Origin: Eledone cirrhosa | Taxonomy: Eukaryota | Reading direction: 5' to 3' | Length of the DNA: 64,000 bases | Assembly: GCA_964016885.1 (NCBI GenBank) | Contig: OZ024743.1 | Location: forward strand, 341,806,001-341,870,000 | In this document: in pieces, positions 11,968-64,000 of the stretch | Position numbering within the stretch: position 1 is the stretch's first letter | How the letters are laid out: each line of letters starts with the position of its first letter | Notes under the pieces: model-generated | Seen by the model: only the letters and a program-made list of their open reading frames with translations | Database searches by the model: none | Told to the model about the DNA's origin: nothing | Made by a program: the position numbers and the translations under genes

Positions 11968-12005
<38 letters not shown>

Positions 12006-12212
12006 CGTTTCTGAATTTGTTTAACAAGATTCTTTATCTGAAAACGTGTGTTGAAACCGATATTGTTATACTTTGGGAGGGTCATGTTGCCAATAAGAAC
12101 ACACGCACCAGTTGCTTTCACTTCAATTTATTATAATAAATTTATAAATTTAGGAATTTATGAATTTCCGGTTGGTTGGTTGGTTCCATAATCAGATGGT
12201 TGTTTATACATT

Positions 12213-12255
12213 GTCAAAGTTCTTTCGTCACACATTCTGTGACCTCTTCAGTGAC
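12213..12255 (-). ncRNA. Minimal hammerhead ribozyme (PLE-3 3' pLTR)
   Basis: gtca-CTGAAGA-g-gtcac agaatgt gtgac-GAAA-gaac-TT-tgac. Confidence 0.75.
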
Positions 12256-12456
12256 TGGGGATTCTTTTCTTTGTTTTTGTGCCACTCCTTTGTTCTGTCC
12301 TACGCCATTTTGTTTCTGTGTGTGTGTTGTGTGCTCAGTCTGCACATGCGCCACATCCGGGTGTCTGTGTGTGTTCATATTCGTTTATTTATTTGTTTAT
12401 TTACATGTTACAGGTTGGTTGTTTGTTCTATGTGCGTGTGTGTTTTCATTTTGTCC

Positions 12457-13770
12457 TTAATTGTAAGTTGTGATGTTGCTGTTCCACTCATATTTTCTAT
12501 TTAATTTTGGTTGTAATTCTTTTATGTTTATTGCCTCTGTGATTTGTCTAAACATTTCGTCTTTTCTGTGTGTAGATTCTATTTTTATTTCTATGTTCTC
12601 TAATTTACCCTTATGTTCTATTTTAGCATGTTGGTAGAGTACAGATGATTCTTTACTATATTGAAGGTCTTGCCAGTGTTCATGTATCCGTTCGCCTTCA
12701 CTACGAGCTGTCTCACCTATGTACACCATATTTTTGTCTCTACATTGTCCTTCAGTACATCTTATGCTATATACTACATTTCTAGTTTTACAGTTAATAT
12801 GGGGGCTTAATTTACAGGTTATACATTTCTTATCTATACAGGGGGTCTTTGAAAAGGGTATGTCTTGCTAATAAGTGTTTTTACGGAGGTACCTGGTCTT
12901 TCTACTATCTTAATATTGAGTTTATGTTTGTCTAGGGCCCTTCTAAATTTGTAAGCTAATTCACCTCTAGGGGTTGTATCGATGAACATTACACTCTGGT
13001 ATGTATTGCCATCATACCATGAGTTTATTCTATTTGCCTTATTCCTAGTTCTTTCTATTCTATTCCAAAATTTGCTCCTATACATGGGGCAGGTCCCATT
13101 TGTGTCATTATTTACCATTTTTTCCCATTTGGTTCTGGCTCCTCTATACACTCTGATTTTATCTCTCTGATTGTAACCAGAGAACTGCATACGGTGGATG
13201 AAGTGTTGTATGTGTCTCTCTAGTTCCTCGGGGTTGCACATGCGAGACACGTTTCTCATCACCCGTACCAAATCCGCAATCAGTATGTTGATTTTGGTAT
13301 GGTCCGAAACAGCTGAGTTTCGGTGGATCAGATATTTGGAAGTCATGGGTTTGACATAATGGGAATGGAGGATTTGTTTTTGTTATTAATGATATCTAAC
13401 CAGAGCTCTGTGTCTAGTACAGGCAATCGATGGTTGGGGTGTTTACTTGGGTAGTCTATAGTAACTCTAATACTCTGGTGGATGGAGTTAGCTATTTGCT
13501 GGATGCTTTCCATCGTGTTTTTCTCTAATTCCTGACTGTTCTCTAGTGGGGGTGTTTTAACTACGATGTTTATATCATCAACGTAGCGGGAGTACATTAT
13601 CAGGGTTAAGGGGTCTTCTAATTGTTCTTTAAGTTTAAGTTTAATTCTTCTGTCCCACCATACCATGAATAAGTTAGCTATGTCGCCTGCAATGCTAACA
13701 CCAATGGCTTCTCCTTCCTCTTGGGCATATGTTTTTCCATTAAATTTGAACATATGTTCCTTAAGGGTTA
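12457..13770 (-). pseudogene. PLE RT + GIY-YIG pseudogene
   Basis: GEAIGVSIAGDIANLFM, YSRYVDDI, LPVLDTELW, linker PCIDKKCITC..NCKTRNVVYSIRC..C, then VYIGETARSEGERIHEH, RQITEAINI..LNRKYEW. Confidence 0.88.
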
Positions 13771-13909
13771 ATAAATAAATAAACGAATATAAACACACAC
13801 AGACACCCGGATGTGGCGCATGCGCAGACTGAGTACACAACACACACAGAAACAAAATGACGTAGGACAGAACAAAGGAGAGGCACAAAAACAAAGAAAA
13901 GAATCCCCA

Positions 13910-13952
13910 GTCACTGAAGAGGTCACAGAATGTGTGACGAAAGAACTTTGAC
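13910..13952 (+). ncRNA. Minimal hammerhead ribozyme (PLE-3 inverted pLTR)
   Basis: gtca-CTGAAGA-ggtcacagaatgtgtgac-GAAA-gaac-TT-tgac. Confidence 0.75.
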
Positions 13953-14098
13953 AATATATAAACAACCATCTGATTATGGAACCAACCAACCAACCGGAAA
14001 TTTATAAATTCCTAAATTTATAAATTTATTATAATAAATTGAAGTGAAAGCAACTGGTGCGTGTGTTTCTTATTGGCAACATGACCCTCCCAAAGTAT

Positions 14099-14148
<50 letters not shown>

Positions 14149-46231: not shown

Positions 46232-46266
<35 letters not shown>

Positions 46267-46341
46267 ATATAATCAAGGTTTAGCAAATAAGAAAAAGTTT
46301 TAAAATAAATTTTAAAAAATTCGCTGTACTCACTATGGTCA

Positions 46342-46427
46342 CCTTTACCGAATCGGTTTCGAGTCTCAAAAATAAATGGACAGTCCTTGCGGTCTTTCCA
46401 TTTCAAAGATAAACTCTCGTCAGAAGG
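46342..46427 (-). ncRNA. Hammerhead ribozyme, canonical core
   Basis: Reverse complement of the copy at 47303-47388. Confidence 0.8.
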
Positions 46428-47302
46428 ATCTTTTCACTCGGAGAATATAAAATTCACGAGTTCAAATTACGAGCTGGCGCTATTCAAAATAGTTCCTGAG
46501 ATGAGAATAAATGATGTGGAAGCAATTCCGTCCAGTGCCGTGTGTAAAGATAGAAGCAAAGGCAGGGAGGTCAGTCTACTACCACTATAACTAGCAGCAG
46601 TCAGAACGACCAAATTTTGTTCTCGACTAAGAGGAGAATAATAATAAAGTATATATCCCTACACGCAAAAAGCGTCTAGAGACACATGTATTGTCCAACC
46701 ATATGCCAATGTGGTTCAATGGCAGGTTAATAAATTATCGAGCCAGAACATATATAATCAAGGTTTAGCAAATAAGAAAAAGTTTTAAAATATATTTTAA
46801 AAAATTCGCTGTATTCAATCTGGTTACCTTTACCGAATCGGTTTCGAGTCTCAAAAATAAATGGACAGTCCTTTTTTGAGACTCGAAACGGATTCGGTAG
46901 AGGTAACCATAGTGAGTACAGCGAATTTGTTTAAACTTATTTTAAAACTTTTTCTTATTTGCTAAACCTTGATTATATATGTTCTGGCTCGTTAATTTAT
47001 TAACCTGCCATTGAACCACATTGGCATTTGGTTGGACAATACATGTGTCCCTAGACGCTTTTTGCGTGTAGGGATATATACTTTATTATTATTCTCCTCT
47101 TAGTCGAGAAAAAAATTTGGTCGTTCTGACTGCTGCTAGTTATAGTGATAGTAGACTGACCTCCCTGACTTTGCTTCTATCTTTACACACGGCACTGGAC
47201 GGAATTGCTTCCACATCATTTATTCTCATCTCAGGAACTATTTTGAATAACGTCAGTTCGTAATTTGAACTCGTGAATTTTATATTCTCCGAGTGAAATG
47301 AT

Positions 47303-47388
47303 CCTTCTGACGAGAGTTTATCTTTGAAATGGAAAGACCGCAAGGACTGTCCATTTATTTTAGAGACTCGAAACCGATTCGGTAAAGG
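47303..47388 (+). ncRNA. Hammerhead ribozyme, canonical core, extended stem II
   Basis: cctt-CTGACGA-gagttt..aaatgga..tccattt..agactc-GAAA-ccga t tcgg-TA-aagg. Confidence 0.82.
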
Positions 47389-47588
47389 TAACCATAGTGA
47401 GTACAGCGAATTGTTTTTTATTTATTTTAAAACTTTTACTTATTTGCTAAACCTTGATTATATATGTTCTGGCTCGTTAATTTATTAACCTGCCATTGAA
47501 CCACATTGGCATATAGTTGGACAATACATGTGTCCCTAGACGCTTTTTGCGTGTAGGGATATATACTTTATTATATATATATATAGTT

Positions 47589-62909: not shown

Positions 62910-62978
<69 letters not shown>

Positions 62979-62985
<7 letters not shown>

Positions 62986-63685
62986 GACGTAAAATAAGAA
63001 AATTTTAAAATTTTAAATTTTAAAATTTTCTTATTTTACGTCTTTCATATAATTGTTCTGCATCCCCTTGCATAGAACCACAAAGTTACTAAGACATAAC
63101 ATATATATTTGCTAGCATAGGTATACATCTGTATATATATGTTGGTAGATATACTAATTCTTTATATTTATCTCCAAATTATTTGTTGAGCAAAACCTGC
63201 CGAAATTACTGCTATGGTTCATGGTAGTAGTTAGGCTCTTGTCTTATTACCACCCACTGATTAACCTCAGTGTCACGTGATTGATTCTTTAGAATTTGCC
63301 ACTGAGCTAGTAGGCAGTGAATTTTTTCAATGTCCAGGAATTTACTCCCCGCTCGCTATTTTCCATCCACTGAATTATTTTTATATGAGTTCCTTGTGTC
63401 CACGCATTGCCTGGGAACTTAGCTGAGAATAGACTCCCGGAAGACGTAAGGATTTCTCTATGGTTGCGTTGCATAACCATATTTATTCCCTTACAGAAAC
63501 TAATTAGTTGGAGTGAAAATTTTAGTAAGTTAATTTTAAAAATTTTCTTATTTTACGTCTTTCATATAATTGTTCTGCATCCCCTTGCATAGAACCACAA
63601 AGTTACTAAGACATAACATATATATTTGCTAGCATAGGTATACATCTGTATACATATGTTGGTAGATATACTAATTCTTTATATA
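62979..63685 (+). mobile_element. Non-coding retrozyme-like element: 517-bp unit, terminal direct repeat, inverted 5' arm, hammerhead at 63433-63514
   Basis: ttattttacg recurs at 63031/63548; palindrome 62979-63050; actcc-CGGAAGA-cgtaagg..tatggtt..aaccata..ccttaca-GAAA-ctaattag-TT-ggagt. Confidence 0.72.
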
Positions 63686-63830
63686 TATATATATATATAT
63701 GGAAAGTTATATTTAAATTGTTGGGTTAACAATGAGTAAATATTTATAACTGATATAAAAGCACTCAACAAGTATTTGGAGTATATTTATGATATTAAAT
63801 AAATGGAAACTATATTTATAAAACCATATT

Positions 63831-63896
63831 TATTTCATTATATATATTTCAGGGATATCATATTAACAATATGTTATGCCTTCATCAGACAAAATA
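63831..63896 (-). ncRNA. Hammerhead ribozyme; an inverted partner starts at 63983 and runs off the window
   Basis: tattttgt-CTGATGA-agg cataacatattgttaatatgatatc cct-GAAA-tatata-TA-atgaaata; arms 63879-63914 / 63965-64000. Confidence 0.75.
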
Positions 63897-64000
63897 CAAT
63901 ATAAACAGTCTTATAAATAAATAGATATGACATACCTTTCAATCGACTTGCATTTGGGAAGTTGATAAGACTGTTTATATTGTATTTTGTCTGATGAAGG

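What the first reader, a model, noticed from the sequence alone, without database searches (positions are those of the whole stretch)
62979..63685. 517-nt unit with a U4G hammerhead: inverted arm plus 1.3 tandem copies
Seen: a ~155-bp direct repeat (63015-63165 / 63532-63685, period 517); a short inverted copy of the unit start forming the 62979-63050 palindrome; an HHR with a perfect 5-bp stem I, a two-helix stem II and palindromic stem III (ctaattag). The architecture matches 46266-47575, but the sequence is unrelated. Inference: a more-than-unit-length copy whose start lies away from the ribozyme is what reverse transcription around a circular RNA would leave.
Basis: partly seen in the sequence, partly recalled or inferred. 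Interest (0 to 1): 0.72.

Follow-up and report, generated by a model that had tools for sequence, protein, structure and literature searches.

The report
Decayed copy of Penelope-type retrozyme family
This 0.7-kb stretch is one copy of a dispersed, non-coding 517-531-base repeat with a hammerhead ribozyme fold, likely pasted into TA repeats by a Penelope-type jumping-gene enzyme; its odd ribozyme core occurs in no other sampled copy and is likely decay, and the family's copy ends pile up near the predicted self-cut site.

Summary
Observation confirmed: a 37-bp inverted arm (62977-63013) plus a 670-nt sense arm (63015-63684, 1.3 units of 517 nt) holding a type I hammerhead fold (63433-63514). 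It is one of many dispersed copies (2779 first-look candidates). The U4G core is private decay: 1 of 42 sampled ribozymes has it, 30 have CUGAUGA. Outer ends are fixed, not permuted: 133 of 143 arms end at one of two sites about 115 nt apart, in (TA)n, and 46 of 48 classed arm pairs have one of each, the Penelope tail-and-inversion signature. The unit is non-coding; no partner element was identified. The sense arm starts 22 nt past the predicted cut, not away from it. Inner ends cluster there in this family (26 of 132) and in an 84%-identical sister family (10 of 39, window fixed beforehand). This favours partly cleaved linear multimers as a main template; circles are neither shown nor excluded. 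The circle idea is already in print (PMC4209133, PMC7229834). This scan found the same kind of system before on other DNA of this genome. Verdict: new member of a known kind, interest 0.36.

The parts
62913..62976 (.). (TA)n target microsatellite, left flank
   Evidence: 64 of 65 A ends and 62 of 68 B ends in the family run into (TA)n
62977..63013 (-). Inverted arm, 37 nt, whose outer end is fixed end A (…TTTCATATA)
63015..63684 (+). Sense arm, 1.3 units of 517 nt; starts 22 nt past the predicted ribozyme cut in unit register and ends at fixed end B (63679-63684, ambiguous with the TA flank)
63055..63078 (+). Bulged hairpin 1 (GTTC / inner stem / 2-nt 3' bulge / GAAC, then CACA), 3 nt past end A; likely copying-start signal
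   Evidence: fold; same build with different inner stems in the sister family, the 46266 element and a 457/467-nt family
63104..63153 (+). Long predicted hairpin inside the tail between ends A and B
   Evidence: predicted
63172..63190 (+). Bulged hairpin 2 (CTC / inner stem / 2-nt bulge / GAG), just past the internal end-B position
   Evidence: found in this and the sister family; the descriptor found no twin in the 46266 or 457/467 families
63433..63514 (+). Type I hammerhead fold with long two-helix stem II; this copy has U4G (63439) and N7 U>A (63442); predicted cut 63509|63510
   Evidence: both changes seen in 1 of 58 full units
63569..63684 (+). Tail: second copy of the unit start between end A and end B, with a second hairpin 1 at 63572-63595
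63685..63700 (.). (TA)n target microsatellite, right flank

Best explanation
This is one aged copy of a dispersed non-coding hammerhead repeat (a non-LTR retrozyme) that was likely inserted by a Penelope-like RT/GIY-YIG enzyme acting in trans, likely from multi-unit RNA only partly cut by its ribozyme. Inferred cycle: an array is transcribed; some hammerheads cut, making 5' ends at the 63509|63510 position; the enzyme nicks both strands of a (TA)n tract and starts one cDNA at site A and one at site B, each a few bases before a bulged hairpin; the two cDNAs run 3'-to-5' along the RNA until they drop off or reach a cut end, and are joined head to head, often through microhomology. Here the A cDNA was 37 nt, the B cDNA 670 nt, and both stop about 22 nt short of a cut site. 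The ribozyme core of this copy mutated after insertion and would cut poorly. Shown: copy structure, fixed ends, target, covariation, end clustering. Inferred: transcription, cleavage, the enzyme, the hairpins' role.
For: Dispersed copies at 91-94% on many contigs. 79 de-duplicated loci, 143 arms: 65 end at A, 68 at B, 10 elsewhere. Of 56 divergent arm pairs 46 are A+B, 1 A+A, 1 B+B, 8 involve an unclassed end; 35 junctions overlap, 4 are blunt, 17 have filler. Sister family: 11 of 11 classed pairs A+B. This matches two RT start sites bounding the tail, cleavage of both strands and AT-rich targets shown in vitro for a Poseidon element (PMC11167929, main text read) and the inverted-arm-plus-one-sided-tail layout (PMC8557442 passages). 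Longest Met-ORF in the doubled majority unit is 27 aa. The genome holds PLE enzymes: 10,597 GIY-YIG candidates, 150 scored; 6 of 9 long ORFs hit both RVT_1 and GIY-YIG in Pfam. Inner ends within 33 nt 3' of the cut: 26 of 132, rate ratio 2.7, p 2.5e-5 (window chosen after looking, 4 of 300 null scans reach it on an earlier 97-event set); sister family with the window fixed beforehand 10 of 39, ratio 4.1, p 6e-4, and both arms of L164 begin exactly at the cut. Stops occur at the second ribozyme site reached (16 of 47) as well as the first (10 of 65), which a linear multimer with an upstream cut explains; only 3 of 133 arms are within 12 nt of one unit, so no one-lap barrier shows. Tandem units differ in a 4-nt AGTA indel in 13 of 21 multi-unit arms.
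Against: No RNA data, so transcription, cleavage and circles are all untested. The cluster is not sharp: in this family no inner end sits exactly at the cut (nearest -1 and +4), in the sister family 8 of 39 lie up to 20 nt before the cut, and the zone holds an AT-rich hairpin and the 12-bp stem III palindrome that would favour joining by microhomology without any cleavage. Two other hot spots have similar rates: unit 370-380 at 9.1 per kb and 311-335 at 6.8, against 10.1 at 458-474. Third-pass stops are 0 of 11. The family ribozyme has a C.A mismatch where G10.1-C11.1 is usual, and in the 2026 preprint only 1 of 9 retrozyme dimers cleaved in vitro; PMC11167929 found uncut RNA the main substrate and no RNA-seq ends at the cut. 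Units within a locus never switch subfamily at the main diagnostic sites and a few locus-private variants are shared by all units and both arms (L044, L069, L098), which fits a single-unit circle equally well. The AGTA indel recurs in both subfamilies and the sister family, so it may be RT slippage. The partner enzyme was not identified.
Confidence: 0.62

Rival explanations
1. Same family and enzyme, but the main template is a ligated monomer circle that RT laps from sites A and B.
For: Most arms read through the cut site (55 of 65 first passes, 31 of 47 second passes). Arrays reach about 7 units (L098) although mean drop-off is about 3 per kb, so length must be regenerated somehow. Units in a locus agree at diagnostic sites more (92%) than units of different loci (65%). 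Circles are shown for coral, mussel and axolotl retrozymes (PMC7229834 passages and Discussion).
Against: A circle has no 5' end, yet second-pass stops cluster beside the cut (16 of 47). No pile-up at one lap (3 of 133). Mixed AGTA state in 13 of 21 multi-unit arms. In L098 and L039 variants are shared by subsets of units, which suggests local duplication after insertion.
Confidence: 0.25
2. The short inverted arm arises by fold-back (self-priming) of one cDNA, not from a second RT start; end clustering reflects palindromes, and the ribozyme plays no part in insertion.
For: This copy's arms are a perfect palindrome about one base, and both share an A-run length that differs from the downstream copy. 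L028 and sister loci L164, L170, L172 also have both arms ending at nearly the same place. Self-priming was proposed for such junction palindromes (PMC3846280 passage).
Against: In most pairs the two arms stop at different unit positions, often hundreds of bases apart, and the strict A+B pairing (46 of 48) follows directly from two start sites.
Confidence: 0.1
3. The unit is the pseudo-LTR of an autonomous coding PLE, or a local tandem duplication or satellite.
For: Truncated PLE ends have the same layout. Two loci abut coding PLE fragments (L064, L081).
Against: Units are joined head to tail with no ORF between them. Of 40 GIY-YIG loci only two hold the unit or its sister, both apart from the ORF (L118, L129). 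The two abutting PLEs belong to different families. Copies are dispersed over many contigs.
Confidence: 0.03

Closest known systems
Metazoan non-LTR retrozymes (Cervera and de la Pena 2020, PMC7229834: passages and Discussion read; Li, Clavereau and Pollet 2026, bioRxiv 10.64898/2026.07.22.740005: parts 1-3 of 5 read, supplements closed)
   Same: Non-coding AT-rich tandem unit with one type I hammerhead; mostly few units per locus; dispersed; co-occurs with PLEs; unit length inside the 51-972 bp range of the preprint.
   Different: Longer than the 150-450 bp units of the 2020 paper; long two-helix stem II with a C.A base mismatch; neither text as read maps fixed ends, inverted arms or stop points; expression and circles are not shown here.
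EN+ Penelope-like element insertions (Craig et al. 2021, PMC8557442: passages, section 11, supplement hits; Arkhipova et al. 2013, PMC3846280: passages)
   Same: Partial tandem plus inverted 5'-truncated arm, one-sided tail, (TA)n targets, junction palindromes and microhomology, hammerhead upstream of the tail.
   Different: No ORF; tail about 115 nt against the usual 30-40 bp.
Poseidon PAc of Anolis, in vitro (Frangieh et al. 2024, PMC11167929: parts 1-2 of 4 read)
   Same: Two RT start sites bounding the tail, near a stem-loop downstream of the hammerhead; both target strands cut and extended.
   Different: PAc is autonomous, and no RNA ends at its ribozyme cut were seen; here genomic ends cluster near the cut.

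Membership tests
Metazoan non-LTR retrozyme | Tandem non-coding unit of a few hundred nt, no LTR, no ORF | tested here: met
   517-539-nt units head to tail; longest Met-ORF 27 aa
Metazoan non-LTR retrozyme | One type I hammerhead per unit with conserved core | tested here: met
   CUGAUGA in 30 of 42 sampled copies; helices covary. Not met in this copy (U4G); base of stem II is C.A; no Rfam hit
Metazoan non-LTR retrozyme | At least two consecutive intact ribozymes ('active' in the 2026 preprint) | tested here: not met
   This copy has one, mutated; other loci have two or more (e.g. L039, L098)
Metazoan non-LTR retrozyme | Self-cleavage in vitro | not testable with these tools
   only indirect end clustering
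Metazoan non-LTR retrozyme | Expressed as linear and circular RNA | not testable with these tools
   no RNA holder listed
Penelope-type insertion (non-autonomous) | Inverted 5'-truncated arm and one-sided tail between two fixed ends | tested here: met
   46 of 48 classed pairs A+B; sister 11 of 11
Penelope-type insertion (non-autonomous) | Insertion into AT-rich or (TA)n targets | tested here: met
   126 of 133 classed ends
Penelope-type insertion (non-autonomous) | Sequence shared with the pLTR of an autonomous partner | tested here: inconclusive
   none among 40 of 150 scored GIY-YIG loci; Hydra-clade elements were not sampled
Autonomous PLE | RT plus GIY-YIG ORF between pLTRs | tested here: not met
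Novel U4G hammerhead variant | U4G conserved across copies | tested here: not met
   1 of 42, 1 of 58 units; run X1 reads T at 63439 in 80,810 of 81,251 depth

The most novel reading that the evidence does not exclude
The copy ends are a fossil record of the Penelope reaction on a parasitic RNA: they would show that the hammerhead does cut the template in vivo (stops pile up at the cut in two families), that twin bulged hairpins shared by unrelated retrozymes set the two start sites, and that the enzyme stutters at initiation like telomerase, adding (CT)n only where the template reads CTCT (13 of 25 such ends have 4-31 repeats, 0 of 18 ends of the other form, 0 of 61 internal junctions).
Probability: 0.4. 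Interest if true: 0.62.

Novelty: new member of a known kind. Interest (0 to 1): 0.36.

Why it matters
The headline oddity (U4G) is decay, and the class is known. What remains useful is mechanistic: the role of the hammerhead in Penelope-type transposition is stated as unclear in PMC8557442 and was not needed in vitro in PMC11167929. Copy-end statistics in this family and its sister give an indirect genomic handle on that question, on linear versus circular templates, and on repeat addition at initiation by a telomerase relative. A short non-coding substrate with defined start signals would make these directly testable.

Tried and rejected
Rfam scan of the whole window: 112 matches at E<=1, all microsatellite-driven small-RNA models, no hammerhead. 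Apparent recurrent start points at unit 472, 322 and 200 in plain BLAST were partly indel artefacts of using the window copy as reference; redone with subfamily references. One search used a mis-registered structure string and is void; one search replaces it. The core tally failed on a regex and was redone. RNA-editing scars: no sense-strand A>G excess (private variants 34 A>G against 46 T>C, p 0.91; shared variants lean the other way). Allele switches between tandem units were not used: unit 116 is a flank artefact and 466/492 are the same change in mirror contexts, likely a mutation hot spot. Locus-private variant sharing does not separate circle from linear. Expression: no RNA holder listed; the one run laid (X1, kind not on record, contigs) cannot show ends. 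Partner search: GIY-YIG loci, two hairpin patterns (only non-coding families) and the GAACCACA motif in the Craig 2021 supplement (5 hits, none recognisably this hairpin) found no partner. Sequence look-up in earlier findings returned nothing. Rows dropped before counts: 19 overlapping loci, segmental duplicates L007 and L089, one local duplicate in L091, one edge fragment in L026; in the sister set L153 and L165 (overlaps). Paper searches listed no report of 5' ends clustering at the ribozyme cut or of (CT)n addition at PLE starts; the library lacks most subscription papers and preprint supplements were closed.

Full report
Observation. A (TA)n run is followed by a perfect palindrome 62977-63051 centred on 63014, and a direct repeat of period 517 (63022-63167 against 63539-63684, one mismatch). 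A type I hammerhead fold spans 63433-63514, with predicted cut 63509|63510. Rfam gives no hammerhead match in the window and the motif alone folds weakly (z -1.56); the whole unit folds at z -5.47. I number the unit from u1 = 63053; the cut is u457|458.

Copy number and the U4G core. A search of the 3.0-Gb own genome with 351 nt of the unit gave 2779 candidates, 40 scored, with full-length matches at 91-94% on many contigs. A 25-nt canonical-core pattern has 86 exact matches against 0 for the control. Among 42 ribozymes in 27 loci found by DNA similarity (not by the core), 30 read CUGAUGA, 4 CAGAUGA, 7 have other single changes and 1, this copy, reads CGGAAGA. Both changes occur in 1 of 58 full units, and run X1 reads the canonical bases almost throughout. 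This copy is 95.9% identical to the family majority (mean 96.9%). U4G is thus decay after insertion. The fold itself is supported: across this family and a sister family at 84%, 98.7% of cells pair and 5 of 22 pairs change on both sides. These are in effect single events between two lineages, and helix IIb was taken from RNAalifold on the same alignment. The base of stem II is a conserved C.A mismatch, so activity cannot be assumed.

Architecture. In 79 de-duplicated loci (100 fetched; overlaps and two segmental duplicates dropped) there are 143 arms. 65 end at site A (u516), 68 at site B (u109-122), 10 elsewhere. 126 of these 133 ends run into (TA)n. Of 56 head-to-head pairs, 46 are A+B, 1 A+A, 1 B+B and 8 include an unclassed end; 28 loci have a single classed arm. 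The sister family repeats this (11 of 11). The window copy is an A arm of 37 nt and a B arm of 670 nt. So the ends where copying starts are fixed; only the inner stop points vary. This is the Penelope signature: inverted truncated arm, one-sided tail, (TA)n bias (PMC8557442), explained in vitro by two RT start sites and cleavage of both strands (PMC11167929). The unit encodes nothing (27 aa at most). The genome has many PLE enzymes, but none of 40 sampled loci has this unit as its terminal repeat.

Start signals. Three bases past A lies a hairpin with outer GTTC/GAAC, an inner stem and a 2-nt 3' bulge. The same build, with different inner stems, follows end A in the sister family, in the 46266 element and in a 457/467-nt family (about 0.5 chance hits per shuffled window against 5 seen). 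After reading earlier scan notes on twin hairpins I found a second such hairpin just past B in this and the sister family, but the descriptor found none in the other two. Their role is inferred. The notes' link to Hydra-clade elements was not tested, as none was sampled.

Circle or linear template. Correcting for how loci were found, 26 of 132 inner ends fall in u458-490 (rate ratio 2.7, p 2.5e-5; 4 of 300 null scans reach this on an earlier set). In the sister family, with the window fixed in advance, 10 of 39 do (ratio 4.1, p 6e-4), 8 more lie in the 20 nt before the cut, and both arms of L164 start exactly at it. Stops occur at the first ribozyme site reached in 10 of 65 passes, at the second in 16 of 47, at later ones in 0 of 11. 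Second-pass stops need a template with one intact and one cut site, that is a linear multimer, unless the zone is a hot spot for other reasons. It may be: it is AT-rich, holds palindromes, and two other hot spots reach similar rates. There is no pile-up at one unit length (3 of 133). Tandem units differ in a 4-nt indel in 13 of 21 multi-unit arms, not expected from faithful laps round one circle, but slippage could cause it. For the circle: most passes read through, units in a locus agree at diagnostic sites (92% against 65% between loci), and a few private variants cover whole loci. No RNA run was available. I put partly cleaved linear multimers first and circles second; both may contribute.

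A side result. Where the template at B reads CTCT, 13 of 25 ends carry 4-31 CT repeats; where it reads CTTT, 0 of 18; internal junctions never exceed 2 (61 cases). This points to stuttering at initiation, recalling telomerase (comparison from general knowledge). My one search for this in print listed nothing relevant.

Comparison and novelty. It works like a non-autonomous Penelope-type element and meets the sequence criteria of a metazoan non-LTR retrozyme (PMC7229834; bioRxiv 10.64898/2026.07.22.740005); cleavage and circles are untested, and this copy alone would not count as active. The circle-template idea is published (PMC4209133). The scan has noted the same kind of system many times in this genome; those notes are unchecked leads and were not counted as support. 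Verdict: new member of a known kind; the U4G claim falls; the end statistics are the part worth keeping. Interest 0.36.

Noticed in passing
B ends of family loci, e.g. L037, L068, L077, L082: (CT)n runs of 4-31 repeats at 13 of 25 B ends in loci whose internal junction reads CTCT, 0 of 18 in loci reading CTTT (Fisher p 1.6e-4), never at 61 internal junctions; suggests reiterative synthesis at initiation.
   Followed up: partly
L143-L172 (e.g. G000:C3:134578650-134579900): Sister family, 521-nt unit, about 84% identical, 2557 first-look candidates, same two ends and compensatory changes in stem II.
   Followed up: yes
window 46266-47575; L122:6510-7419; L173-L202: The 485-nt element and a 457/467-nt hammerhead-like family (418 pattern matches) share hairpin 1 just past end A with different inner stems.
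   Followed up: partly
L064:2250-3650: A family arm is joined, through a 24-nt inverted piece, to a broken PLE RT frame on the same strand, of the same family as the window's coding PLE; template switch or deletion.
   Followed up: partly
L081:1923-4150: An A-ended family arm lies back to back with a 5'-truncated coding PLE (L131 type, no zinc-finger linker) that ends in (TA)n; possibly a mixed-template insertion.
   Followed up: partly
window 12005-14105: Fold-back copy of a broken coding PLE with an RT motif and a hammerhead on each arm (12255 minus, 13910 plus).
   Followed up: partly
L098 (G000:C1:178960150-178963900): Seven-unit arm whose units show an alternating variant pattern, as from dimer duplication after insertion.
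   Followed up: no
window 63270-63276: TCACGTG E-box-like motif kept in both families (label recalled, no call); a possible internal promoter element.
   Followed up: no
window 63700-63930 and G000:C4:341871350-341872850: The right flank is itself a repeat (19 hits among held loci), and a Neptune-like PLE fragment lies 1.4-2.8 kb beyond the window end.
   Followed up: no
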